A DNA stretch of 64,000 bases from a virus: IMG/VR virus record IMGVR_UViG_3300008954_003312, positions 12,235 through 76,234 of that record. One strand, 5' to 3'. Shown piece by piece: positions 11,639 through 45,595 of this stretch; within the stretch, counting starts at the first letter, position 1, and each line of letters begins with the position of its first letter. Under the pieces are notes generated by a model. That model was not told the DNA's origin, made no database searches, and saw only the letters and a list, made by a program, of their open reading frames with translations. The translations under genes were made by a program, and so were the position numbers.

Positions 11639-11647
11639 GATGTTAAA

Positions 11648-13320: not shown

Positions 13321-13365
13321 TTTACTGGATGTTATCTAAGGGTAATATTTCCTATAGGAGAATAC

Positions 13366-21515: not shown

Positions 21516-23054
21516 ATGCATAGAATCCTTACATGTAGTTCAGATACCTACATTACTAATAAGATTATTAATAATAAATTCAGAGCAGAAGATGCCAATG
21601 TCGGCCAAGCAGGAACAATTGATATATTTAAACTTTATAATGAAAATTCTAGTGGGTCAATTACGGGAACTATTGAGGTCTCAAGGGGTCTGTTAAAGTT
21701 TGATCTAAATCCGCTTAGACAGCTTACGGGATCTTCTTTAGATACAAATCACTCATCTTTTAAATGTATGCTAAAGATGTATGATGTTTATGGTGGTCAA
21801 ACTACTCCTTCAAGCTTTAAGCTAATAGTATTTCCGCTTTCTAAGTCTTTTGACGAAGGTATCGGCAGAGATATAGTTAATTTTTCTGATCTTGACTCTT
21901 CTAATTTTGTAACAGCATCAGTTATTGATGATACTGCAACGCTTTGGGAGCATACGGGTGCAGCCAAAGAGGGTCTGCTCGGGTCAAATGATCTCGATAT
22001 TATATCTAGCGGAAATCTTTCTGATGGCAGTGGTGTTGTAAACATCTGGAAATCACAGACATTTTCAAAAGGAAACGAAGATCTTTCAATTGACATAACA
22101 ACTATGGTATCTGCTACACTTGCTAGTCAAATACCGGACTGCGGGTTTAGAATCTCTTTTTCAGGCACACAGGAGTCTGATGACAGGACAAGATTTGTTA
22201 AGAGGTTTGCTTCTAAGAATTCTACTAGATTTTCAAAAAGACCTAAGATAGTTGTGACCTACGATGATTCAGTTCAAGACCATCATGGTGTATTCTTTTT
22301 TGATGTAACTGGGTCTATATTTTTAAATAACTTTCATAGAGGTAATCCTACAAATATACTTTCTGGAACAAGAAGAAGGGGAATATCTGGATCTAACTGC
22401 ATAGTTTTTAAGATATTTTCTGGAGTTAATGGATCTGGATCTTACTTTGCTAAACAGCTATCAGCTTCTCAGCACCAAGTTGGTATTAATTTTATAACAG
22501 GTGTATACTCAGCAACATTTGCAATTTCAGAATTTGAGAGCTCTAGCCTAAGAGAGGAGATAAAAAGCGCTGGATCAGCTACATTTACTACAGTCTGGTC
22601 TTCTGTTGACGATACAGTCGGATATCATACTGGATCACTTGTAATTAATACAGTAAAAAGAACATCATTTGAAAATTCTCCTCGCAGGCTTTTTATAAAT
22701 GTAACAAATCTAAAGCCAACGTATGTATCTTCAGAGAAGTCTAGATTTAGAGTGTTTGTTCAGGACGTTGCAAAGCAGATTGTTGCCTATAAGCTTCCAT
22801 TTGAGACAGTAAGCGAAATATTCACAGACATGTACTATAGAATTAGAGACTTTGAGACAGATGATATTATAGTTCCTTTTGACCCTGAGTCAAAAGGAAC
22901 GCTTCTCTCTACAGATACCAAGGGAATGTATTTTGATTTTTATATGGACTCTTTGGCTCCAGGAAGAACTTATATATTTGACTTTTTAATAAAGGACGAA
23001 GGAACAGACCTGGTATTTTCAAATGTTGCTGCTAAGTTTGATATTACCAGGTAG
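21516..23054 (+). CDS. Putative baseplate/virion structural protein
   Basis: DTYI...SRGLLKFD...RPKIVVTYDD pattern (DNRLRE-like); S/T/G-rich; follows the gp6-like gene. Confidence 0.5.
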   Translation: MHRILTCSSDTYITNKIINNKFRAEDANVGQAGTIDIFKLYNENSSGSITGTIEVSRGLLKFDLNPLRQLTGSSLDTNHSSFKCMLKMYDVYGGQTTPSSFKLIVFPLSKSFDEGIGRDIVNFSDLDSSNFVTASVIDDTATLWEHTGAAKEGLLGSNDLDIISSGNLSDGSGVVNIWKSQTFSKGNEDLSIDITTMVSATLASQIPDCGFRISFSGTQESDDRTRFVKRFASKNSTRFSKRPKIVVTYDDSVQDHHGVFFFDVTGSIFLNNFHRGNPTNILSGTRRRGISGSNCIVFKIFSGVNGSGSYFAKQLSASQHQVGINFITGVYSATFAISEFESSSLREEIKSAGSATFTTVWSSVDDTVGYHTGSLVINTVKRTSFENSPRRLFINVTNLKPTYVSSEKSRFRVFVQDVAKQIVAYKLPFETVSEIFTDMYYRIRDFETDDIIVPFDPESKGTLLSTDTKGMYFDFYMDSLAPGRTYIFDFLIKDEGTDLVFSNVAAKFDITR

Positions 23055-23063
23055 GCGATTAGA

Positions 23064-26000
23064 ATGAAGAAGAAAAGAGTACTAAATCTTAGACAGCCTC
23101 ATCTATTTAAGCCCTCTACTGTTAGAAGGACAGCTAAGCCAGGAGCTACTTTTAATAGAGATATAAAGCTTAGCAGTCTATCAAATACAAACATTGAAAG
23201 CACTTCTTCTTTTAGATACGACAATCCAGGCTCAGGGCTAAAGTCTACACAAGAAGTCTCAGTTGACTATAGCAGATTTGAAAAACATACATTTTTTAAC
23301 TCTGCTGTCTCAAAAGTAAATATTGCATTTGATAGAATTATTAATGAATTTCCTTTTGATGGAGCAGAAAGAGAAATAGAGGGATTTATTGACTCTTTGA
23401 CAGGATATGAGAAGCACATTTTTGATACCTTTCCTAAAAACACAGGCTACCTTATATTTTCAGGAACTGTGTCAGGTGAAGACTATCACGAAGGGACTTA
23501 TCTTAAGGTAAATGATAAGGCAGGAACAAGTTATCCTGAATTTTCTAAAAATAGAACTGGAAATAGTGTTATAAATCCTGGATTAAGCACATTTTCTATT
23601 GAGATGCAAATATTTCCACCTGATATAGTCAATGACAATCAGGTCATATGTCAGATGCTAAGCGGGACTAATGGTAGCTTCGGCGATGGCGGATTTACTT
23701 TGGGTCTATCATCCTCAACAAGCACAAGTGAATCAACTTTGATATTTGCTGTTGCTTCGGGAACAACTCACCTTCATGCCACAGGAACTATTAACAAGGG
23801 ACAGTGGAATCATATATGCGCTACTTTTAATAGATCTCCAGGCGCTGGAAATTTACTTCTTTACGCCAGCGGAAACCTAATAGCTTCATCTTCAGATTCT
23901 GCAGATGAAATGGGGACTCTATCTTTTAATTCACTTATGCCGCTCTATATCGGTTCTGGTTCTGCCCAAGATCTTTCTTTAGGCATGGAGAATCCTGCAC
24001 ATTCAGCTCAGACTCTCTGGACACCTCGTCAGACATTTTCTGGATCGATTGATGAGTTTAGATTTTTTCATAAGACAAGGAGTATTATTGATCAAAAAGA
24101 GACAGCTCTAAGTGAAATATATCCAGATGATGAAGGTTCACTGCGACTTTATTTTAGATTCAATGAGCCGTCTGGCTCTTATAGTATTCCAGATGTTGCT
24201 CTTGATAGCTCAGGAAACTCTCTTCATACTAATATTACAAATTTTGATTCTACTAATTCGAGACTGACTGGGTCAAATACAGACTGGGGTGTTTGTATGA
24301 CGGCTGAGAATAAATCGTTGTCACCAATTCTATTTCCATCTTTTAAAAATGTAAGGGGATTAAATGCAGATCTTTTACTCTCTGCTAGCTTGTTTGATGG
24401 TCAAAATCCAAATCTAATAACAAGACTAATACCTCCACATTATCTTGAAATGGGATCTGAGGACCAGGGATTTAATTCTATAACAGGAAGCATGGGAGAT
24501 ATGATTAAGCCCAATAGCATTCCGGGATCTTCTGTCATAGGATCACCTCAGATTATGACAGCATTCTTATTAATATGGGCAAAATATTTTGATGAGATAA
24601 AGATATTCATAGATCACTTTTCTAACTTAGTTCACATTGACTATGATGACATAGATACAGCAGCAGATAAATTTTTACCTTTTGTTGCTAAATATTACGG
24701 ATTTGAGCTTCCTGGAATTTTCTCTAACACTAGCCCAGAGCAATTTATTAAAGGTAGAAATATTGACGGTTCTTACTCTATATCCGCTGAGTCTCTTAGA
24801 TTTGTTCAAAATCAAATATGGAAGAGAATTTTAATAAACATTAGTGACATAAGGGCATCTAAGGGAACAAAGCATTCTGTAGAATCAGTGTTTAGAGCTG
24901 CTGGAATTGATCCTGATTCATTTTTTACAATTAGAGAGTACGGAGGTCCGACTAAACGATCACTAGTTGGATTGCGACAGTCTAGAAAAGAAGTCTCAAC
25001 AGCCTTAAGTTTTACGGGAAGTCTAGCACCGTGGCCAGAAGCGACTCTTGCGACAACATCTTCTGATGGTCTCAATAGCTTAATGCCCATCCTTAGATCA
25101 CCGTTTCTATCCGGATCCAGGGTTGAGGTAGGGTACCCTCTTGCCCGAGGTGGGTTTAATAATGCAAAATATGTTGCAGGAGAGATAGTTACCCACGGAA
25201 CATCTACTGATAGGTCTGACGGATTATTTACATCTGGCTGCTTTACATACGAGGGAACTTATATATTTCCAAGGCTTGTTACTGGCTCCTATCCAGTAAG
25301 TCAAAGTCTCGTTAGATTTCAAGTGACTGGGTCTGCTTCTCCTTCTGATAGAAACGGAGTTGTTGCAAACCTTATTGCAGTCTCTGGAGCTAATAACTCT
25401 CTTACAGGAAGCGGATCAGATTTAAAGCTATTTGTTAGACCTTCATATGCATCAACATCAGAGAAGACACTTGAGATTGCTTTAACTGGTGCTAATATCT
25501 TTAACGGTGAGCAGTGGAATATTTCTTTTGGAAGAATTCGATCTGACTCACCTCAGCTTGATTTAGATTCTGAAAATGCTGTCTCTTCATCGTATTTCCT
25601 TAGATGTGGGCATCAATCAGCTGGAGAGATTACTAGCGTCTATCAGACGTCTTCATTTTTTATGGAAGTTTCAAATAGGGGTGTAACAACTAATAAGAAT
25701 GTATTCTCATCGAAAGTTACAACTTACAATGCCAGTGGTGTGTTTTTCGTAGTAGGCTCACAAAGTTTAGGAGATCCTACTGGAAACTACTTTTTAAACG
25801 ATGAATCAGTAGCAGCTGACAGTGCAGCTCGTGTAACAGATTTTGCTGGTCGAATATCACGTATAAGATTCTGGTCCAAAGCACTTGAGTCAGGTGAGTG
25901 GAAAGAGCATGTAAGAAATTTTAAATCTCTTGGGGTCAAAGATCCACTAGTTAATTTTAATTTTAACACTCTTTCATCTGGCTCATTCGAGAGGCTGCGG

Positions 26001-26798
26001 ATTGATGCTACAACAGATCAGAGAGTTACAGCTTCAAATAGTCAAGGTGAGATAGAGATATTTGATTTTTCAAAGAATAGCACAATAAACTCAGAAGGCT
26101 CTGCTGCACCGTGGATTGCAGCAGACCAGGCTGGCTCAGTTACATACTATCACCTTTCAGGAACAGGATTTGAAGCTGACAAGTCTGTGATAAGGCCTGA
26201 AGAATTTTATTATAGCTTTTTATCACCGAGATTTGATATCGGACAGACAGATGATAAAGTAAGAATAAGAAGCTTTAAAGATGCTGATAAGATAAAGAAT
26301 AGCAACTATGCAGGAAGTGCACCAGTCTACGAGGTCCCACCAAGCGAGCAGCCCGATGATGATACCAGGTTTAGCATTGACTACTCTGCTGTCAAAGCAT
26401 TAGATGAAGATATAATGAATATTTTTTCATCTCTTGAGTTTTTTGATGATGCTCTTGGGCAGCCAAATATGATGTTTGATGAATACTATCCCGATATTGA
26501 TCAGGTAAGAAAAATTTATTTTAATAGGCTTATTGATAAGATAAATGTTAAAAAATTCTTTGAGATATTTAAATGGTTTGATACATCATTTACTGCCTTT
26601 ATTGAGCAACTTATCCCTAGAAAGACAAAATTTCTAGGCATAAACTATGTTATAGAGTCTCATGTTCTTGAACGGCATAGACACAGATATTTATTTGATG
26701 AAATTTATCAACCAGCCGGCGAAAGAGAGCGGACATTTGATGTTGCTACACTTATTGATATCGATGTAACCATAGATGGACATGGAGGAGATTTGTGA
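23064..26798 (+). CDS. Large baseplate protein with LamG-like domains and a tail protein I-like segment
   Basis: GQWNHICATF and FSGSIDEFRFF (LamG), LPFVAKYYG...SKGTKHSVES (P2 gpI-like), and a second RISRIRFWS strand. Confidence 0.6.
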   Translation: MKKKRVLNLRQPHLFKPSTVRRTAKPGATFNRDIKLSSLSNTNIESTSSFRYDNPGSGLKSTQEVSVDYSRFEKHTFFNSAVSKVNIAFDRIINEFPFDGAEREIEGFIDSLTGYEKHIFDTFPKNTGYLIFSGTVSGEDYHEGTYLKVNDKAGTSYPEFSKNRTGNSVINPGLSTFSIEMQIFPPDIVNDNQVICQMLSGTNGSFGDGGFTLGLSSSTSTSESTLIFAVASGTTHLHATGTINKGQWNHICATFNRSPGAGNLLLYASGNLIASSSDSADEMGTLSFNSLMPLYIGSGSAQDLSLGMENPAHSAQTLWTPRQTFSGSIDEFRFFHKTRSIIDQKETALSEIYPDDEGSLRLYFRFNEPSGSYSIPDVALDSSGNSLHTNITNFDSTNSRLTGSNTDWGVCMTAENKSLSPILFPSFKNVRGLNADLLLSASLFDGQNPNLITRLIPPHYLEMGSEDQGFNSITGSMGDMIKPNSIPGSSVIGSPQIMTAFLLIWAKYFDEIKIFIDHFSNLVHIDYDDIDTAADKFLPFVAKYYGFELPGIFSNTSPEQFIKGRNIDGSYSISAESLRFVQNQIWKRILINISDIRASKGTKHSVESVFRAAGIDPDSFFTIREYGGPTKRSLVGLRQSRKEVSTALSFTGSLAPWPEATLATTSSDGLNSLMPILRSPFLSGSRVEVGYPLARGGFNNAKYVAGEIVTHGTSTDRSDGLFTSGCFTYEGTYIFPRLVTGSYPVSQSLVRFQVTGSASPSDRNGVVANLIAVSGANNSLTGSGSDLKLFVRPSYASTSEKTLEIALTGANIFNGEQWNISFGRIRSDSPQLDLDSENAVSSSYFLRCGHQSAGEITSVYQTSSFFMEVSNRGVTTNKNVFSSKVTTYNASGVFFVVGSQSLGDPTGNYFLNDESVAADSAARVTDFAGRISRIRFWSKALESGEWKEHVRNFKSLGVKDPLVNFNFNTLSSGSFERLRIDATTDQRVTASNSQGEIEIFDFSKNSTINSEGSAAPWIAADQAGSVTYYHLSGTGFEADKSVIRPEEFYYSFLSPRFDIGQTDDKVRIRSFKDADKIKNSNYAGSAPVYEVPPSEQPDDDTRFSIDYSAVKALDEDIMNIFSSLEFFDDALGQPNMMFDEYYPDIDQVRKIYFNRLIDKINVKKFFEIFKWFDTSFTAFIEQLIPRKTKFLGINYVIESHVLERHRHRYLFDEIYQPAGERERTFDVATLIDIDVTIDGHGGDL

Positions 26799-27688
26799 TG
26801 GCAATAAAACCCTTTGAAGATAGAGGCATTGTTGATCTTGGTAAGAATGTCAATAAGTACACTATAGGATCTCAAACCGGCTCTAGCGCAACTCAAACAA
26901 CAGTTCTTGATAGACTGAGACAGGGAGTGAGCATTAGGAGTGTAAGCCAGCAATACAATAGAAACCTACCGATATTGAGAAGCGCTGACCCACCAACTTT
27001 CACTGATCGTCCAACTGTGCCATATCTTGAAAAGTGTAACTATGGACAGCCGAAGCATTTTAATGATCCCTCACCAGATGGAACCCCGTCCCCCTTTGAA
27101 GATATTGTCGGAAGGTTTACTGGAAAGGAATACATAGAGGACGCTGGTGGGACACAGATATATCCGATAATACTTCTCAATCCAACACTCAGGGACCCGG
27201 GTCAGATGGATGGTGTGATCGAACCTCTCGATATTAGAAATACAGTCGTTAATAGCTCACTAGGCGAGCCCTATATTTTCCATTCAGTCAAGGGTGCGCT
27301 CATGTCAGGTCACAGAGACCACAGTGCAAAAGGTGCAGAGGTCATGTCTCAAATTAGGTACTTTAAAAACTCAAAAAATATTGATTTTTTTGAGGATAAC
27401 AGCGAGAGATCTTTAGGTAATGTGGCAGCACCTGGATTTGTTTCTAATTTTGAAACAAAGATAAATCCATTTATAGACTCTCAGATTTCTACTAATCCGA
27501 CTGCATCTTTTTCCTTTCTTTCTGGCTCGTACAGAGATAGAGGTAAATTTGGTGTAACGTATAAGTCTGCTCATTCTGGGTTTATATTTAATCCGTCAGG
27601 TGTAGGTAATACAGATGATGAAAATGGAAGAGTTGTGTCCACAGTTCTTGGGACAGATTCCATAGCATTCGGAGGTCTAAAGAAGTAA
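26795..27688 (+). CDS. Hypothetical virion protein
   Basis: Coupled ORF with SD GGAGG in the structural operon. Confidence 0.5.
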   Translation: MMAIKPFEDRGIVDLGKNVNKYTIGSQTGSSATQTTVLDRLRQGVSIRSVSQQYNRNLPILRSADPPTFTDRPTVPYLEKCNYGQPKHFNDPSPDGTPSPFEDIVGRFTGKEYIEDAGGTQIYPIILLNPTLRDPGQMDGVIEPLDIRNTVVNSSLGEPYIFHSVKGALMSGHRDHSAKGAEVMSQIRYFKNSKNIDFFEDNSERSLGNVAAPGFVSNFETKINPFIDSQISTNPTASFSFLSGSYRDRGKFGVTYKSAHSGFIFNPSGVGNTDDENGRVVSTVLGTDSIAFGGLKK

Positions 27689-30441
27689 TGCCAGTTTCAG
27701 GATCAGACGGAAAGCTTAGATCAGGATTTATATCACTACCTCCTCGTGTTGTTTTACGATTTTTTGATAACATGACCGGCTCTTACCCCACAATTGCCAG
27801 AACAGGAGACAAGGACAGACTTGGAAACTTTAGGACTTACTTTGATGATACAGATACGATAGTATTTGGAAATAGTGAAAATTTTGAATATCCAACGCTT
27901 CTTCACTCTAGATCATTTGCTTATATTGGCAGAAGAGTTGCAACTCCTCACCCTAGAAGTAGCATAACAACTGCAGCAACCGGTGCAGCCGGAGTCAGCG
28001 ATTCTGGAATCTATATTCCTGTAAAGGGTCCGCTTGTTCCTGCTTCTTCATCTTTTGACACCTTTTCACCTTTTGATGAGAGCAGGATTTTTATAAACAG
28101 ATCTTCAAACTTTTGGGCAACAGGCACCAAAGAAGAAGTTAAGCCAGGATTCTCTACACCCCTCTGGAGTAAGACTCAGATATCAATTGATATATCCCCT
28201 AGGGAAAGAACTAGATTGACAAGAGCATCAGGCCATCGGAATGATCGAGGTCCGTTTATGAGCCAGAGTTTTACAGGCTTTTGCTATTACAACTTTGTAG
28301 AAAAGAGATGGGAGGAAAAAGGAATACTTGACCCAGTGAGTGATGGCTCATCTTTACATAGGCTGCAAATGTTTGACTGGGCAGCTAGGATAAATGGAGC
28401 TGTTGGAACACTAACCTCCGGAACAAGCAACTATCCTTTGCAATTCTTTCCTAGCCCGCAAAGATGGCCAGACGCCAAAGCCGATCCATCAGCATTTGGG
28501 TATAGCCGCATAGGTACACCTACCTGTACAAGCTTTGCTCCATTTGCTACGAAATATCATGCTTCTGCTAGTCAGGTTCTAAAGATGTCTGACTATATCA
28601 CCAGCCCATTTCTTCTTGAAAAAATAACGCTCCAGTTGCCGATTGAGGCTCAGAAGGCTTGGAATACAAACTCTTCTCGTGCTAGAGACATGGACAATTA
28701 TACGTTTTTTCTATATCGTCAGCAGAGAAAGCCAATTGTCTCAGGGTCAGGAAATTCCTATGGATCACCGCCTGACTCAAAGGGAGCAATTACAGGATCT
28801 CAGAGATTTTTAATTGGTAGTGGCTGTATTTGCTTTTACAATACACACGTTGAAAATGAGAGTGGACAGGTCGTAACACCTAATTTTCAACCTATTCACA
28901 CACCTGCCTTTAAGCATGCGATGGGAGCACTAAGCCCTACAGCCACAGCAATTAATAGCTTTACTGGATCAATAATAGTTCCAATAGTTCCAGCAGTTGC
29001 TAATAGGTGCTATCATGGATTTTACTATGTTGAAGACTCTACTAATGGAAAGGGTGTCGGAGTGACTGATAGAAAGGCATATGCTCAGATCTTTAATTAC
29101 TGGCCAGGTGGAAATTCAACTGAGACATTTCATGGTAGAAATTATACAGGAAAGCATCCGGTTCAAATTGCAGCCTATGGTGCTGCAACCATACCAGAGA
29201 TTGGAATATCAACAGGAAAATTTTCCACTTCAATACAAAACTTTAAGGTTGAAAAATTTGATCCAAGATCTCATAGACCATTTGGTGCAGCTTCAAGCTC
29301 AAGCTTTGATAGCACATATTATGTTACAGTTGGAGGAAAACAGTCCATTGAATCTCCATATCTTTTGTTTCCAGAAGATGAGCTAATTTTAGGGATTGAT
29401 GCAGGTCTTTCAAATAATGGAACACTTGATGGAACCTCAAAGAATGCATGGAATGAACTTACGGGTTCAATGCTGACAATGATCTCTAGTGGTTCAAAAA
29501 TGACTCTATTTGGATCTATGATAAGAGACGGTGTTCAGTTTCATAACGGATTAAATCAAAACTTAACTTCTAATGCAATACATGAGTCTCTTCACTATGA
29601 CAATCCCACACTTGATCAGTTTAATATTGAGAGCAGAGAGTCATATATTGGAACTTACATAGACGACGGAATCACAGGGTCCTTTACAGAAGCGGGTATT
29701 CATGCAAGGGGAGTAATGGGCAGTTTCGCTTCAGGCACTGCCGGACCGATGACTGGATCACTTTTGAGAGGCTTAAGGACGGCCGATTCCTCTGAAAGAT
29801 ATTACGATACTTTAATGCCCAGTATAGAATCTATTGGAAATTCGCTTGGTCTAACTAAGTATGCAAGGTATAATGGCTCTGCTTACCCAGTTATTAATTT
29901 TGCCACTGCAGCATTTAGAAGATCTATGCCATGGCCTTACGCTGAGGGAAGAGGCGATAATAGACAAATATCTGATAATATTGGAATTCTTTTATTGAAT
30001 ATTGATGGATCTGCTATGCTTTCACGAGCGACTTTTAGTCATAAGCCCGTTAGAAGAATATTATTTTCAAAATATAAGTTTCTTGATCCAGAGAATGGAT
30101 TGACTGCTACCTCTAGATACCAGTCAAGTGCTAATGTAACAGGCGCACTATCTTTTAACTATGGTATCTATAATATAGATCCAAAAAATTCATCAGCTGT
30201 TTTTAGATATGATAGATACGGCCAGTTTAGAGATATGCTTGAGCAAAGACAGGACTCTAAGTTCTATAAGCCCTTTACAGTCAGCAAGGATGGCAGATCA
30301 ATATCTAAGAGAGCAATTGCCCAGTCACCAGTTTTTATAAAGTTTGTCAGTAGATCATCAGAAATAGAAATAAGCCCGTATGAGACATCACTCTTCAATA
30401 AGAGTATTGAATCCACATCTTCATATCCGTACTCTGGATAG
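27688..30441 (+). CDS. Large hypothetical virion protein (S/T/G-rich)
   Basis: TAATG coupling to the upstream gene; structural module context. Confidence 0.5.
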   Translation: MPVSGSDGKLRSGFISLPPRVVLRFFDNMTGSYPTIARTGDKDRLGNFRTYFDDTDTIVFGNSENFEYPTLLHSRSFAYIGRRVATPHPRSSITTAATGAAGVSDSGIYIPVKGPLVPASSSFDTFSPFDESRIFINRSSNFWATGTKEEVKPGFSTPLWSKTQISIDISPRERTRLTRASGHRNDRGPFMSQSFTGFCYYNFVEKRWEEKGILDPVSDGSSLHRLQMFDWAARINGAVGTLTSGTSNYPLQFFPSPQRWPDAKADPSAFGYSRIGTPTCTSFAPFATKYHASASQVLKMSDYITSPFLLEKITLQLPIEAQKAWNTNSSRARDMDNYTFFLYRQQRKPIVSGSGNSYGSPPDSKGAITGSQRFLIGSGCICFYNTHVENESGQVVTPNFQPIHTPAFKHAMGALSPTATAINSFTGSIIVPIVPAVANRCYHGFYYVEDSTNGKGVGVTDRKAYAQIFNYWPGGNSTETFHGRNYTGKHPVQIAAYGAATIPEIGISTGKFSTSIQNFKVEKFDPRSHRPFGAASSSSFDSTYYVTVGGKQSIESPYLLFPEDELILGIDAGLSNNGTLDGTSKNAWNELTGSMLTMISSGSKMTLFGSMIRDGVQFHNGLNQNLTSNAIHESLHYDNPTLDQFNIESRESYIGTYIDDGITGSFTEAGIHARGVMGSFASGTAGPMTGSLLRGLRTADSSERYYDTLMPSIESIGNSLGLTKYARYNGSAYPVINFATAAFRRSMPWPYAEGRGDNRQISDNIGILLLNIDGSAMLSRATFSHKPVRRILFSKYKFLDPENGLTATSRYQSSANVTGALSFNYGIYNIDPKNSSAVFRYDRYGQFRDMLEQRQDSKFYKPFTVSKDGRSISKRAIAQSPVFIKFVSRSSEIEISPYETSLFNKSIESTSSYPYSG

Positions 30442-30484
30442 TTTGAGTTTGTAATATTTATATTTGTAAAGATAAGAAAATAAA

Positions 30485-31453
30485 ATGGCCGGAATCCTAG
30501 ATAAGAAAACAAGAATAATGGATAACATTATAACGCTTGCTGGAAAAAAACAAATGGCATCCGGCAGATTGCGATTTGAATTTATTTCATTCACAGATTC
30601 TGATACTTTTTACAAAGGCGATATCGTTAGTGGGTCAGCTGATGCTTCAAAGAGAATTTTCTTTGAAGCGACAAGTAAAAATCAAGACTCTATTACATTT
30701 GAAACTGATGATTCAGGAAAGCTAATTCCAAATAGCAGAATTTATGAAGGCGCATCCCTTACAACTGATGCAATTTTTTCAAAAACCACTTCAACAGAAA
30801 AATATGGAGACTATGTATATACTTCAGGTTCTGGAGATTTTGCTAGCTTATCTGGCGGAATAATTACTGGATCTTTGGATAATTTTAAAAATCTTAGAAT
30901 GCTTGGGACCAGGCTAGGAAAAGATGCTTTTAAAAATCTAAGACTTTCTACAACTGAGCTTTACTATGAGATGACATCAGATGTTCCTTTCCCAGGAGGT
31001 ACCGGTGAGGAAATAAACATAGATGCTGTCGAACCTCTCTTTATAGATAAGCGTCTTTCTCATATTGATAATTTTAAATTTCTACCCCCAGTCTTTCCGC
31101 CTGTTCCTGGATTTGATGACGGTGGTGAGCTTGGAGAATATATTAATCTAAATGAAAATGATGAGCTAACATATTCAGAAATATTGTCTGACCTATCAGA
31201 CAAAGAGGCTTTTTCTATTGATTTTGAATCCACATCTGATGCTAACAATATTGTTATGCAAATGTTTGAAACAGGAAATGGAAAATTTATAAAGCTTGAT
31301 GTTATAGACTTTGGAGAAGTTTACCATTCTCCGCTCACTCACGGTCTCTCTGAGGGCAGCAGCCAAAAGAGAATCTTTTTTATTGGAAAGGTTTTTCTTG
31401 ATTCTCTAAAGATGCCGACATTTGTTAACTTATTTACAATGGTAATAGACTAA
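30485..31453 (+). CDS. Putative baseplate/tail protein
   Basis: N-terminal GILD...DNIITLAGKKQMA...FTD motif, paralogous to 40821. Confidence 0.5.
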   Translation: MAGILDKKTRIMDNIITLAGKKQMASGRLRFEFISFTDSDTFYKGDIVSGSADASKRIFFEATSKNQDSITFETDDSGKLIPNSRIYEGASLTTDAIFSKTTSTEKYGDYVYTSGSGDFASLSGGIITGSLDNFKNLRMLGTRLGKDAFKNLRLSTTELYYEMTSDVPFPGGTGEEINIDAVEPLFIDKRLSHIDNFKFLPPVFPPVPGFDDGGELGEYINLNENDELTYSEILSDLSDKEAFSIDFESTSDANNIVMQMFETGNGKFIKLDVIDFGEVYHSPLTHGLSEGSSQKRIFFIGKVFLDSLKMPTFVNLFTMVID

Positions 31454-34164: not shown

Positions 34165-34876
34165 AACCATTGACTATGCCGGATCTAAGCTCTCTGTCCA
34201 GTCTGCAACAAGGACATCAGGAGCTCAGAGATCAGGTGGCTCGTCTGCTACAGTTCAAACTAGTGTATTAACAAATTTAGAAAAATATACATCTAATGCA
34301 GTACAGTCGTCTCTTTTAATCAATGAATCAACACTTGATTCAGGAAAGATTAGTACATCAGGAAAAGTTAATTCTCTTGCAAATTTTTCAAGAATGACCC
34401 CCTCAGGTGATTTGATGTCATCTGTTCTTGCTGCTGGTGGAATGAATTCTCTTTATGATCAGATGAGACTTGAGTACGCCTCTTCAGGAAGATCGATTTC
34501 TCAGATTGAAATAGGGGATGTTCAGACGGTATCTAGTGATACTTCTGACACAGCTGCTTCAGATGTGACAACGATCTATCAAGATGTTATATCTTCTAAT
34601 ATGCTAATGAATAGAGGCTTTGATCCTACAAGATCATCTATTATAGGATCATTTGAATTTATTCCCATAGCAGATGAGATCGAGACAAATGATCAAACAC
34701 TGCTTTACGATTTTACACCTACAACATGTCTTCTATTAGTTGATATGCAATCCATAACACAGCAAACTAGATTATTTACTGTAAGCACGATTATCTATAG
34801 CCTCGGAGGTCTTGCAGATGATGATTCAGCACAGTCCTCCAGTAGTGCAGATTACTCAGGTTATAGCACAGATTAG
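34154..34876 (+). CDS. Hypothetical Ser/Thr-rich protein
   Basis: Probable TTG start at 34154 after GAGG (ORF track starts at 34142). Confidence 0.5.
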   Translation: MTIKTIDYAGSKLSVQSATRTSGAQRSGGSSATVQTSVLTNLEKYTSNAVQSSLLINESTLDSGKISTSGKVNSLANFSRMTPSGDLMSSVLAAGGMNSLYDQMRLEYASSGRSISQIEIGDVQTVSSDTSDTAASDVTTIYQDVISSNMLMNRGFDPTRSSIIGSFEFIPIADEIETNDQTLLYDFTPTTCLLLVDMQSITQQTRLFTVSTIIYSLGGLADDDSAQSSSSADYSGYSTD

Positions 34877-34890
34877 GAGACTATATTATA

Positions 34891-35103
34891 ATGCCATCCA
34901 AAGATAGCCCAGGAAGAAGAAGAAGGCAGACTGATTTTAAAGAAAACGTTCGAAATGCATCCAAGAGACTGAACTTTAAGAGACAAAATGGTCAAAAATC
35001 TAAATCATCTTCTCAAAATATTAAAAAGTCTTTGAGAAGATTATCAAAAAGCGCAATCTCAATTAATAGCTCAGTTAAAAATCAGCTGAATAGGAGAAAA
35101 TAG
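34891..35103 (+). CDS. Small highly basic protein
   Basis: SD AGGAG; 22 of 70 residues are K/R by hand count; fills the gap exactly. Confidence 0.5.
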   Translation: MPSKDSPGRRRRQTDFKENVRNASKRLNFKRQNGQKSKSSSQNIKKSLRRLSKSAISINSSVKNQLNRRK

Positions 35104-35105
35104 AC

Positions 35106-38711: not shown

Positions 38712-38783
38712 TGAAAATTATCAATTGGATATTACGAGAGGGTTTTATGATTTATTTTTATTTATTAACTAGAGGGGCTAGCG

Positions 38784-40715: not shown

Positions 40716-40820
40716 AAGGAATTTAATATTTTTAGTCTAAAAGATAAGTTAATGGCTATAATATTTAATCTAGGTTAACTTTAAATTTTATAAATCTATA
40801 ATTAGATGTAGGAGGAAAAA

Positions 40821-41522
40821 ATGGGATTCTTAGACAATTCTACAAATAACATTATTATTGATGCTGTTTTAACAAATCTCGGTAGAGAGTTCTTAGCTAG
40901 AAACGATGGATCTTTTTCTATTTCAAAGTTTGCGCTAGGAGATGATGAAGTAGATTACTCAATAATTCAAAAATTTGGTAGAACAGTTGGTGTTGAAAAA
41001 ATTGAGAAGAATACACCAATATTTGAGGCACTAACCTCAGGAAATCAAGCAATCAAGAGCAAGCTAGTCAGTGCAAGCGATCCCACACTCACGAGGCTTC
41101 CAAGCATTGTTATTACTGGGCCAGATGCAAATAACACTGTTGAGCTTACAAGGACAACGACAGCCTCTTCGACAACCAATGAAAAGACGCTAATTGTTGA
41201 ACAGTCACAATCAGGAGGGGGTACAGTTCCCACAGACTTGCAGGATCCTGCAATACTTCTTGAATGTAATAACTTATTTGTAAGTGTCAAGGGAAAAGTT
41301 CCAGAATCTATAAATTCTGATAATATAGCTACATACCTTATAGTCAAGAATCCTACTACACTTTCTGGAAATAGATCACAGTTTACACTAACGATATCTG
41401 CTAAGAATGTTTCATCTTCTTTGTTTAATGCATACGGAGATGATTCAACCGTTATTTTACCGGTTACAGTAACCGGAATTTCATCTGGTGCTAGCAGCAC
41501 GTTTACTGTACAGATTACATGA
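40821..41522 (+). CDS. Putative baseplate/tail-fibre attachment protein
   Basis: DAVLTNLGREFLA...ISKFALGD; strong SD AGGAGG. Confidence 0.55.
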   Translation: MGFLDNSTNNIIIDAVLTNLGREFLARNDGSFSISKFALGDDEVDYSIIQKFGRTVGVEKIEKNTPIFEALTSGNQAIKSKLVSASDPTLTRLPSIVITGPDANNTVELTRTTTASSTTNEKTLIVEQSQSGGGTVPTDLQDPAILLECNNLFVSVKGKVPESINSDNIATYLIVKNPTTLSGNRSQFTLTISAKNVSSSLFNAYGDDSTVILPVTVTGISSGASSTFTVQIT

Positions 41523-41541
41523 TAATTGGAGTTAATAAAAA

Positions 41542-42807
41542 TTGGGTACCTATAAATCTATAAGCGCAGCTGATATTAAGACAAGCAGATCTTCTTTAAA
41601 TCAGCTTGTTGATATTATTCAAGAGGACATTTCAGGCTCTGTAACAAGAAAGACATTTCAGGTTTTTGTCACAGGAGGTGTCGCCTCCTGTCCCGGTGTG
41701 ACGTCTTCTCAGTACCACACTGTCTTTGATCAAAATTACAGTTTCCAGACTGCTAATGAAATTTGTGACATGACTATCGGACTTTGGGAATCTGGGTCTA
41801 CAGTCGCGAGCTGTAGCACAGGAGAAGATAGCGCCGGTAAGCTTCTATTCACATCAGAGACGCTGATGATGAGAGAAAAAGTGGACCTCTACAGGCAATA
41901 CTCTCAGACTCTCTTAGGCTCTGACACTGTTTTCCAGATTCCGTATAAGGGAAGCAGTCAGAAGAATATCGATAATGCAATGTTTATTAACTTTAAGAGA
42001 CTTTTTGCTCGAGATGCTATTAAGAAAGAGACATTTGCTATGCGAATGTATGCCACAGCGGTCATTGATTTTAATGACACGACAACAAGAGGGGGTAGCA
42101 CAGCAGGAACACCTTATTCAAATCTCGATAGAACCACAACTACAGGCAGCAAGATCTGGACAGATGTAGGTGCTTCAAGCTTGACACATGTAGCCTATGG
42201 TGGCACAGTTGCAAATATTGTTGACTCTGCAGATACAAGCAACTATGGCGGACTGATATTCTATGATCAGGGAATAATTGTCATGGATCTTGAAAGGTGC
42301 ATATCAGGATCTCAGCATGTTTCAGGTGTTATAAGCAGCATGTCTCCTAATTCTCGTGCTGATGCAGCAGCAGGTCAATCTATAATTGGAAGCGGGACAT
42401 CTGACACAGCTACAGATCCAAACTACAGGGCTACATTTATTCCCTCGCTTATGAGATGTGGATCAATAGACGATATTGTTAATCATCTTGCATCTTGTAG
42501 ATTCCAGTCAGGGTCTTTAACAGCCATAACATTTCAAAATGTTACAGAGATCAACTCTACGCTGATATTCTGTCGTGCAACAGCAGATGAGTTTAATTAC
42601 TCAGGAAATCCAACATTTACTGATGCTGATGATAGGCTAGTTGTAATTGATACCGGGGAAGAAAGCACACAGAGAACATTTAGCTTTATTACCTCTGTAG
42701 GTCTTTATGATAATAATAATAACCTGCTAGCTGTCGCAAAGCTGTCTAGGCCAGTTCAGAAAAGCGATGAGAAGGATCTGACAGTCAGAATCAGGCTAGA
42801 CTTCTAA
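41542..42807 (+). CDS. Putative baseplate/tail-fibre attachment protein
   Basis: C-terminal ITSVGLYDNNNNLLAVAKLSRP...RLDF; TTG start after GGAG. Confidence 0.55.
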   Translation: MGTYKSISAADIKTSRSSLNQLVDIIQEDISGSVTRKTFQVFVTGGVASCPGVTSSQYHTVFDQNYSFQTANEICDMTIGLWESGSTVASCSTGEDSAGKLLFTSETLMMREKVDLYRQYSQTLLGSDTVFQIPYKGSSQKNIDNAMFINFKRLFARDAIKKETFAMRMYATAVIDFNDTTTRGGSTAGTPYSNLDRTTTTGSKIWTDVGASSLTHVAYGGTVANIVDSADTSNYGGLIFYDQGIIVMDLERCISGSQHVSGVISSMSPNSRADAAAGQSIIGSGTSDTATDPNYRATFIPSLMRCGSIDDIVNHLASCRFQSGSLTAITFQNVTEINSTLIFCRATADEFNYSGNPTFTDADDRLVVIDTGEESTQRTFSFITSVGLYDNNNNLLAVAKLSRPVQKSDEKDLTVRIRLDF

Positions 42808-42817
42808 AGGAGACATC

Positions 42818-45595
42818 ATGTCTCTAATAAAGATCTTACCAGAATATCTTGAGACCTTTACCCTAACACTACACCCTAACAGGAGGTTTGTTTCTTCTTC
42901 TGCGGAGGGTGTAACGACTGGTTCACTGTCGCTATCAGCGAGACCTAGCACATCTGTAAAGAGCATAGTTAAGATGTCAACCGGATCTGACACGTCTGGC
43001 TTTGAGGGCTCAGTCTTTGATTTATCAAACTACTACCCTAGCAATATACTCGAAAGTGTAAATAGGGATTATTTAGATAATTACAGAGACTCATCGTGGG
43101 ATGGAACAGCTAGCTATACATCTAATATGGTCGCATATTTATCAGGTGTTCATGAGACGACTGGGTCTCATAGAAACGCTAGGACATTTGAAATCACTAG
43201 ATTTGATGCTCCTTTTGAACTATCTAAAGAGAATGGTGTTAAGAACTTTGTTAGAAACGGTCTAATGTCATCATATAGATCAAGATATACCGGTTGTGAC
43301 TTTACCTATACAAATTATAGCTCATTAAACTTTTTTACCTCTTCTGACGTTCCTTCAGGCTCAGCACTAATTTATCCAAACTTTAGCGGTGCAACACCAG
43401 GTCTTCTTCCCGTTGGAAGCAGTGAAGTTGCCGAGAGGGGTTACGGTCTTCAGCAACCCAGGCCTTACACACCCTATAAGGGATTTACTCTTCAGTTTTA
43501 CATAAATCCAAGGTATACAACTGATGATCCAGTTCAGCACGGAGGGGCTAGCAGCCCGACTTCAGGAAGTGTCTTTAGAGCTGGAACTATTATGCACCTA
43601 TCTTCAACTTTTGCTGTCTCTCTTGTGACTGGGAGTGGAGTTGATGAAAGCGGATATCCCAATGGATACCGAATCATGCTTCAGTTAAGTCATAGTTGTG
43701 ACACTAAGCCCTCTGATGTTGATCTAAGCATAACAAACAGCAGAAGAGATGTTCCAAATGATCTGATCTTTCTATCAGATGATAATGTCCTGACAAGAAA
43801 TCACTGGCATCATGTCTCTATACGATGGGATGCTGCGACTAATAATAGAGGCACAGGATCTTTTTATGTGGACGGATCAGAGAGAGGCAGCTTTGCTGTT
43901 CAGTCTGCTTCAATTGCTGCAACAGAACCGTTTAAGTCTCGACCTAGCGGAAATGATCCAAGGATTACATGGGGATCAGATGCTCTTGTGATTGGAAACT
44001 TTTTTGAGGGATCACACATCGGTCAGCTTTTTAACGGACCTGCTACTGGTAGTGAGGGATGTGCGAGAAAGGTTTTTTCTGATGGAGCCGACAATCCCTA
44101 TCACAGCAGCATTGATCCTGCTGTGGGATTCCATCACCCATTAAATGCTGAGATCCACGAGGTGCAGATCTGGAAGAGGTCCCTGGCAAATGACGAGGTA
44201 AGCACTTTAATGAAAAAAGGTGTCGGATCTATAGACGCACCGTGGTCTGAGAATAACTTTTCAACAAATAAAGCCTCTCTCATAGCTCATAATGATCTTT
44301 GCTTTTATCTTCCTCCTTTCTTTGTCAAGGAGTCCAATCCCAGAAAAGTTACTGCGACACCTTTCCTATTTTCTGAAGGGACAAACGGATTTTCTGCTGT
44401 AGACCTCGACGGCGGCCAGACTCTGGGAACATTCTCTTCTACAACTACTTCACAGACAGATACACCATTTCATCTAACAGCATCACTTTCTGTTGGAGGA
44501 CACATTGTTAGTCTTGAGAACTATGTTAGAGACTTTGTTACCGGGTACTATCCTAGACTTTTTCACCTAACAGCAACTATTATTGACACAGCTGGATTTA
44601 CAGCTAGCCCTAGCAGTTATATCAAGCTAGATCCCGACGGAGAAAAGTGGAGTGCTAATAGATATTTTTATTCTCAGATGTTTGGAGCATCTGGGTCCCA
44701 GATAGCAAAGAGAAATTTAACTATCTTGCCAAACGATAATGGAAAGTTTCAACCTAACTTTGATCTTCTTGAAACTGGATCCGGCTATGGTCTTTCTAAT
44801 GAACCTGACAGCATCTTTAAGACTTCACTGGGTGCAATTGATAGATCGATTGTAAGTCTCAATGAGATGATATTGACAGGTGCCCTGGGCACTCCGCCTC
44901 TTCCTGGTGATTTTGATGTTGATGACAAGAGCTTTATGACAGACATCTGCGGAGCAGCTCCCTCTTCTGGCTCAACAATAACCCCTCCTGATTCTTGTAA
45001 CATTAGTAGAAATTACATACATTATTTCTCTGTCTATAATCAAATAAGAGATCCTAGTTCTAATCAGCTTACATTTTTTAATATTCCAAATCTGTACTAT
45101 GGTCAAAGAATATTGCCTGAAACATTTAAGATAATTGACCCTAGCATGACTGGATCTGGAGGAAAGGTCAAGATCACCCTTAAGGACAATGGAAAAGGGG
45201 GACTCTATAGAGCAGACTGTACAGGATCTCACCCTACTTGGTCAAATGTTGGAAATGTTTTTTATGAAGAGGGCGTTGCGATTATTAAATCTCCAAATCT
45301 TCCCTTGTTTGCAACAGGAGCATTTGAGACATCCTTCCAGGGAGAGCAGAGTACACATGTTTTGACAATCAATGCTCCCTGTGAAACTGGAATGTTTATG
45401 TCATCTTCTAACCCATCGTTCAAAGTTCTATCAGCTTCCCTTGATCCGAATGAATACGACCCTGAGTTTGTATACATTACGGGCTTTAATCTTCATGATG
45501 ATAATCTTAATGTTATTGGAAGGTCAAATCTTGCTCAGCCCTTAATCAAGAGGTCTAGCGATGAATTTCTTTTTAAATTTAAAATGGATTTTTAA
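42818..45595 (+). CDS. Virion protein with LamG-like domain
   Basis: NHWHHVSIRW, FYVDG and IHEVQIWKRSL; C-terminus paralogous to 41542. Confidence 0.6.
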   Translation: MSLIKILPEYLETFTLTLHPNRRFVSSSAEGVTTGSLSLSARPSTSVKSIVKMSTGSDTSGFEGSVFDLSNYYPSNILESVNRDYLDNYRDSSWDGTASYTSNMVAYLSGVHETTGSHRNARTFEITRFDAPFELSKENGVKNFVRNGLMSSYRSRYTGCDFTYTNYSSLNFFTSSDVPSGSALIYPNFSGATPGLLPVGSSEVAERGYGLQQPRPYTPYKGFTLQFYINPRYTTDDPVQHGGASSPTSGSVFRAGTIMHLSSTFAVSLVTGSGVDESGYPNGYRIMLQLSHSCDTKPSDVDLSITNSRRDVPNDLIFLSDDNVLTRNHWHHVSIRWDAATNNRGTGSFYVDGSERGSFAVQSASIAATEPFKSRPSGNDPRITWGSDALVIGNFFEGSHIGQLFNGPATGSEGCARKVFSDGADNPYHSSIDPAVGFHHPLNAEIHEVQIWKRSLANDEVSTLMKKGVGSIDAPWSENNFSTNKASLIAHNDLCFYLPPFFVKESNPRKVTATPFLFSEGTNGFSAVDLDGGQTLGTFSSTTTSQTDTPFHLTASLSVGGHIVSLENYVRDFVTGYYPRLFHLTATIIDTAGFTASPSSYIKLDPDGEKWSANRYFYSQMFGASGSQIAKRNLTILPNDNGKFQPNFDLLETGSGYGLSNEPDSIFKTSLGAIDRSIVSLNEMILTGALGTPPLPGDFDVDDKSFMTDICGAAPSSGSTITPPDSCNISRNYIHYFSVYNQIRDPSSNQLTFFNIPNLYYGQRILPETFKIIDPSMTGSGGKVKITLKDNGKGGLYRADCTGSHPTWSNVGNVFYEEGVAIIKSPNLPLFATGAFETSFQGEQSTHVLTINAPCETGMFMSSSNPSFKVLSASLDPNEYDPEFVYITGFNLHDDNLNVIGRSNLAQPLIKRSSDEFLFKFKMDF

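What the first reader, a model, noticed from the sequence alone, without database searches (positions are those of the whole stretch)
21516..45595. Recurring (hydrophobic)-[S/T]-G-S motif confined to a subset of virion proteins: possible sequon
Hand counts of [S/T]GS give about 6 in the 512-aa protein, 12 in 1244 aa, 9 in 917 aa, 3 in 322 aa, 5 in 421 aa and 13 in 925 aa, plus many variants (LSAS, VTAS, FSGT, LTGA). I found none in the 1045-aa SbcCD, the terminase or the 643-aa FN3 protein, 1 in the 903-aa protein and 3 in the Ser-rich 1201-aa protein. The copies are dispersed, use varied codons and occur in proteins of different folds, so they are not a DNA repeat. Inference: a convergently selected post-translational modification site.
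Basis: partly seen in the sequence, partly recalled or inferred. Interest (0 to 1): 0.82.

Follow-up and report, generated by a model that had tools for sequence, protein, structure and literature searches.

The report
Ser/Thr-Gly-Ser tag on phage tail proteins
The outer baseplate proteins of this uncultured marine T4-like phage and its whole clade carry the ordered tripeptide Ser/Thr-Gly-Ser five to nine times more often than chance, at conserved positions; the same phages keep a pair of sugar-transferase genes in the baseplate operon, so the tripeptide may be where sugars are attached, but no chemistry shows this.

Summary
Pooled over seven proteins, TGS is 27 observed against 3.6 expected and SGS 23 against 5.5. 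Permuted tripeptides are flat, and codon use matches background.

Other virion proteins of like composition, and the SbcCD, terminase, portal and capsid proteins, show no excess.

The copies are not free-floating. In three families, 75-87% sit in conserved alignment columns, as hydrophobic-[ST]-[G>A,S]-[S>>T]. They lie in turns, often just before a beta-strand.

One nested sub-clade replaced these columns with unrelated residues, so the fold does not need them.

The bias is shared by phages immuto, RM378 and Mel-JY01. It is absent from T4 and weak in cyanophage S-ShM2.

All enriched phages carry an adjacent GT4 glycosyltransferase pair. In all 75 marine loci with enough flank (50 IMG/VR, 25 metagenome; the sets may overlap), the pair lies about 6 kb upstream, in the baseplate gene block.

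My reading: an acceptor tag for phage-encoded O-glycosylation (0.4) against a purely structural turn (0.35).

The nonulosonic-acid island is accessory. This scan noted the same motif in at least eight other genomes. `look-up of encoding contigs` was closed, so whether motif loss goes with loss of the transferase pair stays untested.

The parts
21516..23054 (+). 512-aa baseplate protein directly after gp6, with 6 [ST]GS copies
   Evidence: 6 against 0.98 expected; family of 117 sequences averages 6.1 per protein against 0.93 expected, 618 of 713 copies in conserved columns; 822 against 128 over 147 loci.
23064..26798 (+). 1244-aa baseplate protein with a LamG_3 domain, 12 copies
   Evidence: 12 against 2.28. 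PF13385, E 1.3e-12; 5 of 12 sites shared exactly with a 44%-identical homologue, others as SAS or TAS; 1246 against 206.
26795..27688 (+). 297-aa protein, 2 copies
   Evidence: 2 against 0.49; family 120 against 33.7 (3.6-fold).
27688..30441 (+). 917-aa protein, 9 copies
   Evidence: 9 against 1.96; family 495 against 132 (3.7-fold).
30485..31453 (+). 322-aa protein, 3 copies
   Evidence: 3 against 0.49; site 49 shared with a 36%-identical homologue.
41542..42807 (+). 421-aa protein, 5 copies, with no solved structural relative
   Evidence: 5 against 0.84; 232 of 271 family copies in 7 columns; model pLDDT 81.6; no fold match.
42818..45595 (+). 925-aa protein with a LamG-like jelly roll, 13 copies
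   Evidence: 13 against 2.08; 929 against 148 in 120 homologues. Reference positions 34, 271, 346, 626 and 778 are conserved in 76-109 of 113-114 sequences..
13366..14610 (+). GT4 glycosyltransferase A, first of the clade-wide pair; candidate transferase
   Evidence: PF00534, E 2.3e-14. EX7E motif EGFGLTTLE; pair present in G001-G003, immuto, Mel-JY01, LR756508 and RM378; syntenic in 75 of 75 loci.
14627..15790 (+). GT4 glycosyltransferase B, second of the pair
   Evidence: PF00534, E 9.5e-10. EGFGLPMLE; synteny.
13343..13350 (+). TAATATTT element 16 nt upstream of the GT4-A start codon, shared with gaps upstream of virion genes; candidate late promoter
   Evidence: 17 copies against 8.6 expected; 6 of 10 plus-strand copies lie in intergenic gaps. 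Not found upstream of the pair in relatives.
19648..21507 (+). gp6-like baseplate J protein, motif-free neighbour
   Evidence: PF04865; 0 against 0.83; 12 against 79.3 (0.15-fold) over 147 loci.
24..12514 (+). Window part of an approximately 28-kb glycan-building island that includes a nonulosonic-acid pathway; accessory, not shared by relatives
   Evidence: Pfam annotation. NeuB absent from 4 of 4 relatives; no multi-pass membrane protein.

Best explanation
The tripeptide is the core of a short surface tag, hydrophobic-[Ser/Thr]-[Gly, less often Ala or Ser]-Ser-(hydrophobic). It sits in the turn at the edge of a beta-strand or helix at fixed positions of the distal baseplate and fibre proteins.

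I think it is most likely read by a phage-encoded factor. The best candidate is the pair of soluble GT4 glycosyltransferases encoded at the head of the baseplate gene block. They would O-glycosylate Ser/Thr of the tag in the cytoplasm while the baseplate assembles. In this phage the glycan could then be extended by the adjacent 28-kb sugar island.

Shown: the enrichment, its order-specificity, its conservation, its restriction to certain proteins and to one phage clade, its dispensability for the fold, and the synteny with the GT4 pair.

Inferred: that the tag is modified at all, that the modification is a sugar, and that the GT4 pair does it.
For: 1. The motif is ordered and asymmetric. TGS is 7.5-fold and SGS 4.2-fold enriched, permutations are about 1-fold, and position +2 is Ser in 70-75% of cases against Thr in 8-9%.
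2. It occurs in seven proteins without detectable homology or internal repeats. The secondary-structure contexts in two AlphaFold models are mixed: a hairpin turn, coil before a strand, a strand start, helix ends and loops.
3. Within the clade the columns are nearly invariant as [ST][GAS][ST] (107-116 of 117 sequences). A nested sub-clade of the same family carries unrelated residues there (P0387 has 0 copies), so the fold does not require them.
4. Co-assembling neighbours are depleted: gp6 12 against 79 and gp25 2 against 15.4.
5. The central residue is G, then A or S, with N and D at 2% or less. That indicates a need for a small residue, not a left-handed-turn glycine.
6. The bias follows the phage clade, not the host. 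It is seen in RM378, immuto and Mel-JY01, with T4 at 0.2-fold and S-ShM2 at 1.8-fold.
7. Every enriched genome has the adjacent GT4 pair. The order GT4-A, GT4-B, then about 6 kb, then the 512-aa gene, on one strand, holds in 50 of 50 IMG/VR and 25 of 25 metagenome loci.
8. Both GT4 proteins keep the EX7E motif, and the island has no exporter.
9. There is a precedent. [quoted passage not shown] Chloroviruses glycosylate their capsid in the cytoplasm at non-standard sites (PMC5408694).
Against: - There is no chemical evidence of any modification.
- The GT4 pair is a core gene of the clade, so its co-occurrence with the motif is confounded by descent; it amounts to one clade against two outgroups.
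- In RM378, immuto and Mel-JY01 the pair lies away from the tail genes, among replication genes in RM378 and Mel-JY01. In Mel-JY01 GT4-A is annotated as two CDS, yet the motif persists.
- The pair is generic GT4, closest to BshA and MshA, and is not a member of any known protein-glycosylating family.
- In the fibres of relatives the motif is part of regular repeats that structure alone explains.
- All the enrichment lies in conserved columns, and no ongoing gain of sites is seen.
- The capsid shows no excess (2 against 1.06), unlike the mycobacteriophage precedent. The sheath of this phage is not in the window.
- The island could instead modify DNA or a lipid.
Confidence: 0.4

Rival explanations
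1. A purely structural motif. Hydrophobic-[ST]-small-[ST]-hydrophobic is this clade's preferred short connector at strand and helix edges in beta-rich tail proteins. The hydroxyls cap the backbone and the small centre allows tight packing. It is inherited at fixed positions and is not modified.
For: - 75-87% of copies lie in conserved columns, and the residual is 0.8-1.6 times expectation.
- In relatives' fibres the motif forms doublets spaced 6 residues apart, an F-[ST]GS-F-SGS-F-x-GDGS signature, and 27-residue tandem repeats, typical of beta-helical fibres.
- 7-8 of 15 ordered sites in the two models lie 0-3 residues before a strand, and two start a helix.
- The G/A/S centre fits a steric constraint.
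- Cyanophage tail proteins show a mild excess of 1.8-fold without the GT4 pair.
Against: - A structural preference should not be this order-specific. SGT is only 2.5-fold enriched and TGT 1.3-fold, and Thr at +2 is rare.
- It recurs in unrelated folds and contexts.
- T4 builds the homologous machine with essentially none.
- A sub-clade of the 512-aa family dropped it while keeping the fold.
- gp6 and gp25 are depleted 6-7-fold.
Confidence: 0.35
2. A tag read by some other factor than the GT4 pair. Examples are a Ser/Thr kinase or other modifying enzyme encoded in the roughly 85% of the genome that was not recovered, a tail-assembly chaperone, or a common binding partner or ligand such as a host polysaccharide contacting arrays of hydroxyls.
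For: The same evidence for recognition in trans applies: order-specificity, dispensability for the fold, and depletion in neighbours. The contig is only about 15% of the genome by CheckV's estimate, so many genes are unseen. Nothing computed ties the GT4 pair to the motif mechanistically.
Against: No kinase or dedicated chaperone was seen in the 76-kb contig. The only conserved enzyme genes inside the baseplate block are the two GT4 genes.
Confidence: 0.15
3. The glycan genes and the motif are unrelated. The GT4 pair and the island glycosylate phage DNA or a host envelope lipid, and the motif has an independent cause.
For: - In RM378 and Mel-JY01 the pair lies among replication genes, next to a PD-(D/E)XK nuclease in Mel-JY01 as in this window.
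- Phage glycosyltransferases that hypermodify DNA are well known (bioRxiv 10.1101/2023.12.21.572611, listed).
- The nonulosonic-acid pathway is absent from 4 of 4 relatives that keep the motif.
Against: - In the marine lineage the pair is fixed at the head of the baseplate block in 75 of 75 loci.
- In this window it carries the same upstream element as the virion genes.
- No hydroxymethylase or TET-like enzyme was seen in the contig.
Confidence: 0.1

Closest known systems
Autotransporter O-heptosylation by Aah/TibC (BAHT family) in E. coli
   Same: It is a cytoplasmic O-glycosylation of many Ser/Thr in a beta-rich surface protein. [quoted passage not shown] Here the motif is hydrophobic-[ST]-G-S-hydrophobic at strand edges.
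   Different: The enzymes here are GT4, not BAHT. The substrates are phage baseplate and fibre proteins. No modification has been shown here.
Mycobacteriophage virion glycosylation (Freeman et al. 2023, known here only through its citation in PMC12619734)
   Same: Phage-encoded glycosyltransferases decorate the phage's own particle.
   Different: There the glycans sit at the C-termini of the capsid and tail-tube subunits. Here the capsid has no excess (2 against 1.06), the tail tube was not identified in the window, and the candidate sites are internal positions of distal baseplate proteins. The original paper is not held in the library.
Chlorovirus PBCV-1 capsid glycosylation
   Same: The machinery is virus-encoded, soluble and cytoplasmic, and attaches sugars at sites that are not the standard sequon (PMC5408694). 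The PBCV-1 glycosyltransferase B736L is a weak sequence hit of GT4-A (3oy2, E 5.5e-4).
   Different: Those glycans are N-linked on Asn of the major capsid protein of a eukaryotic virus. The similarity to B736L is at the generic GT4 level.
GtfA/GtfB O-GlcNAc transferase pair of serine-rich repeat adhesins
   Same: Two adjacent GT-B genes act in the cytoplasm on Ser in S-x-S type repeats. This comparison rests on my own knowledge of the system.
   Different: GT4-A scores 18.6 bits against the 574.6-bit cut-off of TIGR02918. Both proteins here keep the catalytic EX7E motif, whereas GtfB is non-catalytic.

Membership tests
CAZy GT4 / Pfam PF00534 Glycos_transf_1 (the two candidate transferases) | Match to the family profile above the curated cut-off | tested here: met
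   53.7 and 38.7 bits against a cut-off of 26.4.
CAZy GT4 / Pfam PF00534 Glycos_transf_1 (the two candidate transferases) | EX7E motif in the C-terminal domain | tested here: met
   EGFGLTTLE at residue 285 and EGFGLPMLE at residue 272.
Phage virion glycosylation, mycobacteriophage type | Phage glycosyltransferase genes linked to structural genes | tested here: met
   the GT4 pair lies on the same strand, about 6 kb upstream of the 512-aa gene, in 75 of 75 loci.
Phage virion glycosylation, mycobacteriophage type | Glycans demonstrated on virion proteins | not testable with these tools
   Needs mass spectrometry or glycan staining of virions.
Phage virion glycosylation, mycobacteriophage type | Targets are the C-termini of capsid and tail-tube subunits | tested here: not met
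   gp23 capsid 2 against 1.06. The candidate sites are internal positions of baseplate proteins. The tail tube was not identified in the window.
BAHT (Aah/TibC) strand-loop-strand O-glycosylation | Transferase of the TibC/Aah family | tested here: not met
   only GT2 and GT4 families were found in the contig.
BAHT (Aah/TibC) strand-loop-strand O-glycosylation | Acceptor Ser/Thr at the start of a loop between two strands | tested here: inconclusive
   7-8 of 15 ordered sites lie 0-3 residues before a strand, and -1 and +3 are hydrophobic. Other sites flank helices or lie in long loops. No coordinates are available.
GtfA/GtfB accessory-Sec glycosyltransferase pair | Match to TIGR02918 (GtfA) above the cut-off | tested here: not met
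   18.6 bits against 574.6.
GtfA/GtfB accessory-Sec glycosyltransferase pair | The second subunit lacks catalytic residues | tested here: not met
   both proteins keep EX7E.
Structural repeat motif of beta-helical tail fibres | Regular spacing or tandem repeats carrying the motif | tested here: not met
   In this window there are no internal repeats and the spacing is irregular. The feature is met in the fibres of immuto, Mel-JY01 and RM378.
Laminin_G_3 / ConA-like jelly roll (1244- and 925-aa proteins) | Profile match and fold match | tested here: met
   PF13385 at 48.6 and 37.5 bits; pentraxin and LamG folds, E about 1e-6. This explains only a few of the sites.

The most novel reading that the evidence does not exclude
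A large, abundant clade of aquatic T4-like phages, from thermophilic RM378 to huge marine phages, O-glycosylates its own distal baseplate and fibre proteins in the cytoplasm. The acceptor would be a defined minimal sequon, hydrophobic-[S/T]-[G/A/S]-S, and the enzymes a conserved pair of GT4 genes built into the baseplate operon. Lineage-specific sugar islands (here including a nonulosonic acid) would then diversify the glycan. This would be the first sequon-defined protein glycosylation system of tailed phages.
Probability: 0.3. Interest if true: 0.85.

Novelty: new variant of a known kind. Interest (0 to 1): 0.6.

Why it matters
If the tag is a sugar-attachment site, it would give phage virion glycosylation a readable sequence signature. 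So far that modification has been demonstrated only for a few mycobacteriophages and for giant viruses.

With such a signature, glycosylated phage proteins could be predicted from sequence across thousands of uncultured aquatic phages. Sugar coats on the host-recognition apparatus could affect adsorption, stability, and evasion of host or grazer recognition.

Three cultured members (immuto, Mel-JY01 and RM378) make the idea directly testable.

If the tag is only structural, it is still a strikingly specific, clade-wide design rule for baseplate proteins that T4 itself does not use.

Tried and rejected
- Composition artefact: rejected by shuffles and permuted controls.
- DNA-level motif or GATC effect: rejected. 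Codon use equals background and 38 of 50 nine-mers are distinct.
- Paralogy or internal repeats among the seven proteins: none found, apart from a weak 71-residue C-terminal match between the 421- and 925-aa proteins.
- LamG fold as the explanation: it accounts for a few sites only. PAPP-A2 has GDS where the window has SGS.
- Host-specific effect (Bacteroidota): rejected, because Mel-JY01 infects a cyanobacterium and shows the bias.
- Link to the nonulosonic-acid pathway: rejected as a general cause. NeuB is absent from 4 of 4 relatives.
- Free turnover of sites, meaning selection on density: rejected. The residual outside conserved columns is 0.8-1.6 times expectation.
- GtfA/B membership: rejected.
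- Fold identification of the 421-aa protein: no match.
- Homologues in GenBank phages of the 925-, 1244- and 917-aa proteins: none.
- Shared late-promoter element upstream of the GT4 pair in relatives: not found.
No long contig of the motif-lost sub-clade was found in the viral, metagenome or genome collections.
- Literature: no paper found on this motif or on virion modification in these phages.


Full report
**Setting**

The window is bases 12235-76234 of a 76-kb IMG/VR contig that CheckV estimates to be about 15% of a genome. All large ORFs lie on one strand.

The terminase is T4-type and closest, at 43% identity, to Flavobacterium phage immuto and Microcystis phage Mel-JY01. A T4 portal, a prohead protease and a gp23 capsid gene follow.

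The finding's interval covers the genes after a gp6-like baseplate J gene at 19648-21507.

Yes, and the counts match exactly. The [ST]GS counts are 6, 12, 9, 3, 5 and 13 in the six named proteins, against 0.5-2.3 expected. The 297-aa protein adds 2. SbcCD, terminase and the 643-aa protein have 0, the 903-aa protein 1, and the 1201-aa protein 3.

Pooled over the seven proteins, against 2000 shuffles, TGS is 27 against 3.58 (z 12.7, the most deviant of all tripeptides). SGS is 23 against 5.48. GST, STG, SSG, GSS, GTS and TSG lie between 0.8 and 1.4 times expectation.

Position -1 is hydrophobic in 26 of 49 sites (15.7 expected) and charged in 2 (9.7 expected). Hydrophobic-[ST]GS occurs 27 times against 2.9 expected.

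Nine other proteins of the structural region (one of them later proved primase-like), with the same Ser/Thr/Gly content, give 5 against 7.7.

Selection is on the protein. Codon use inside the motif equals the background, and 38 of 50 nine-mers are distinct. The seven proteins are not detectable paralogues and have no internal repeats.

**Are the copies convergent or inherited?**

They are mostly inherited.
- 925-aa family: 120 homologues carry 929 copies against 148 expected. 655 of 874 aligned copies fall in 11 columns. Reference positions 346, 778, 271, 626 and 34 are occupied in 109, 97, 95, 84 and 76 of 113-114 sequences.
- 421-aa family: 232 of 271 copies fall in 7 columns, and the residual is 0.82 times expectation.
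- 512-aa family: 117 sequences carry 6.1 ± 1.3 copies against 0.93 expected. 618 of 713 copies fall in conserved columns, and the residual is 0.88 times expectation. At those columns the degenerate form [ST][GAS][ST] is present in 107-116 of 117 sequences.

At about 40% identity, exact copies alternate with TAS, TSS, SAS, SGT or TGA in the same columns.

In the conserved columns the centre is G in 63-72%, A in 11-16% and S in 7-17%, with N and D at 2% or less. Position +2 is S in 70-75% and T in 8-9%.

So the unit is hydroxyl-small-Ser flanked by hydrophobic residues. The small centre does not behave like a left-handed-turn glycine.

**Structure**

AlphaFold models of the 925-aa protein (pLDDT 77) and the 421-aa protein (pLDDT 82) place the sites between secondary-structure elements. 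There is one two-residue hairpin turn. Several sites lie 0-3 residues before a strand, one starts a strand, several flank short helices, two lie in confident loops, and three are in disordered loops.

This is not one repeated fold element. The only fold recognised is a LamG/pentraxin jelly roll in the 925-aa protein. The 421-aa protein has no solved relative.

In the fibre-like proteins of relatives the motif is clearly part of regular architecture. Examples are doublets six residues apart such as TGS-VDI-SGS-FKV, an F-[ST]GS-F-SGS-F-x-GDGS-x-LTG signature, and 27-residue tandem repeats in RM378.

**Is the tripeptide needed for the fold?**

Apparently not. A profile search of the library clustered at 50% identity found 1618 relatives of the 512-aa protein. 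Most full-length representatives keep 3-8 copies.

A group that clusters together, nested among motif-rich leaves in a midpoint-rooted tree, has lost them. P0387 has 0 copies, P0386 and P0325 have 1 each, and P0355 and P0345 have 2 each. Unrelated residues sit at the motif columns. Compare the consensus FFNL-SGS-LF with YLDK-TNR-LY.

**Distribution**

The split between motif-rich and motif-poor families is conserved. Over 147 related IMG/VR loci:

| Family | Observed against expected | Fold |
|---|---|---|
| 512-aa | 822 against 128 | 6.4 |
| 1244-aa | 1246 against 206 | 6.0 |
| 297-aa | 120 against 33.7 | 3.6 |
| 917-aa | 495 against 132 | 3.7 |
| gp6 | 12 against 79 | 0.15 |
| gp25 | 2 against 15.4 | 0.13 |

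The 903-, 1201- and 643-aa families, SbcC and the terminase are at or below 1.0.

The same bias appears in cultured phages whose tail proteins are not detectably homologous to these.
- Immuto: for example, 26 against 5.9 in gp169, and 0 in gp6.
- RM378: 21 against 3.3 in six adjacent ORFs.
- Mel-JY01: 5-15-fold in the genes after gp6, and 5 against 4.5 in replication genes.

The hosts are a flavobacterium, Rhodothermus and a cyanobacterium, so the trait belongs to the phage clade.

T4 has 2 copies in 21 virion proteins against 8.6 expected. Cyanophage S-ShM2 has 36 against 20. That is only two outgroups.

**Sugar genes**

The contig begins with about 28 kb of glycan genes: three GT2 and four GT4 transferases, four epimerases/dehydratases, methyltransferases, a carbamoyltransferase and a formyltransferase. 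There are also a PIG-L deacetylase, a GNAT, a UDP-sugar dehydrogenase, a radical SAM/SPASM enzyme, and a nonulosonic-acid set (PseB-like dehydratase, aminotransferase, NeuB and cytidylyltransferase).

No multi-pass membrane protein is present. NeuB is absent from all four relatives tested, so that pathway cannot explain a clade-wide motif.

The two GT4 genes at 13366-15790 are different. An adjacent pair of the same sizes is present in G001-G003, immuto, Mel-JY01 and RM378; uncultured phage LR756508 has a GT4-A homologue, its partner gene unchecked.

In every marine locus with at least 9 kb of upstream sequence, the order GT4-A, GT4-B, 243-aa, 500-aa, gp25, gp6, 512-aa holds on one strand. That is 50 of 50 IMG/VR loci and 25 of 25 metagenome loci, and the two sets may overlap. 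The median distance from the end of GT4-B to the 512-aa gene is 6.0 kb.

Both proteins keep the EX7E motif. They are generic GT4 enzymes, nearest to BshA and MshA, and belong to no known protein-glycosylating family.

In this window a TAATATTT element lies in the gaps upstream of several virion genes and of GT4-A. It was not seen upstream of the pair in relatives.

**Interpretation**

Several features point to a tag read by another factor:
- order-specificity
- the preference for Ser over Thr at +2
- occurrence in unrelated folds
- near-invariance inside the clade although the fold can do without the tripeptide
- depletion in co-assembling neighbours

The only conserved enzymes in the baseplate block are the two glycosyltransferases. 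[quoted passage not shown]

Against this stand five points.
- There is no chemistry.
- The co-occurrence with the GT4 pair is confounded by common descent.
- In the cultured relatives the pair lies away from the tail genes (among replication genes in RM378 and Mel-JY01), and GT4-A is split into two CDS in Mel-JY01.
- The motif plainly plays a structural role in fibres.
- The capsid shows no excess.

I put the glycosylation-tag reading at 0.4 and a purely structural connector at 0.35. Another trans-acting reader gets 0.15. An unrelated role for the sugar genes gets 0.1; it overlaps with the structural reading.

**What could not be done**

No long contig of the motif-lost sub-clade could be found by other routes. 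The nearest is L240, with 1 copy and a contig of only 6.4 kb. The natural experiment of motif loss against GT4 loss is therefore untested here.

Earlier notes of this scan describe the same motif in at least eight other genomes, and some claim such a joint loss. Those are unchecked AI notes, and I could not reproduce that claim.

Noticed in passing
window 24-15790 and L002 1-12234 (contig 1-28000): An approximately 28-kb glycan-building island with at least seven glycosyltransferases, a nonulosonic-acid pathway (PseB-like dehydratase, class III aminotransferase, NeuB, cytidylyltransferase), a carbamoyltransferase, a formyltransferase, PIG-L and a GNAT. No exporter, flippase or polymerase is present.
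   Followed up: partly
window 61921-62811: A Sulfotransfer_2 (PF03567) family gene lies directly after the gp23 major capsid gene (59869-61827). A carbohydrate-type sulfotransferase inside the head module is unusual.
   Followed up: no
window 19648-21507, 19152-19646, 13366-14610 and their homologues in L101-L327: [ST]GS is strongly depleted across relatives in gp6 (12 against 79 expected), gp25 (2 against 15.4) and GT4-A (0 against 8.4, and 0 against 3.6 in the metagenome set). T4 virion proteins are also low (2 against 8.6).
   Followed up: partly
window 41542-42807: The 421-aa baseplate protein gives a confident model (pLDDT 81.6) but has no significant structural match in the PDB. Its last ~70 residues resemble the C-terminus of the 925-aa protein (28% identity, E 2e-4).
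   Followed up: partly
window 13343, 30452, 40724, 40759, 58294, 63438: TAATATTT recurs in intergenic gaps just upstream of late genes: 17 copies against 8.6 expected, with 6 of 10 plus-strand copies intergenic. It is a candidate late-promoter element.
   Followed up: partly
window 46169-47125: The 318-aa gene between the tail genes and SbcCD is DnaG-primase-like (zinc ribbon plus a weak DNAG_N match). It carries one conserved C-terminal SGS/TGS in 42 of 74 relatives, so the motif is not strictly limited to virion proteins.
   Followed up: partly
window 47237-50374: SbcD (Metallophos) and SbcC (AAA_23, Walker B) are fused in one 1045-aa protein.
   Followed up: no
window, the 50 motif sites in the seven proteins: The motif's Gly uses GGG in 24% of sites against 7% for other Gly residues of the same proteins. 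This is unexplained and the sample is small.
   Followed up: no
L090 33441-34932 (Mel-JY01 83441-84932): The GT4-A homologue of Mel-JY01 is annotated as two CDS (190 and 302 aa). It is preceded by a PD-(D/E)XK nuclease gene and an IMP-dehydrogenase (GuaB) gene; in the window the nuclease lies directly upstream of the pair. More glycosyltransferases and a methyltransferase follow.
   Followed up: no
window 3871-4989: A radical SAM/SPASM enzyme lies inside the sugar island. Its nearest families are peptide or cofactor maturases and twitch-domain enzymes, and its role is unknown.
   Followed up: no
L240 3926-5416 and proteins P0387, P0386, P0325, P0355, P0345: A nested sub-clade of the 512-aa family has lost the motif. 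Its genomic context (GT4 pair present or absent) could not be retrieved.
   Followed up: partly
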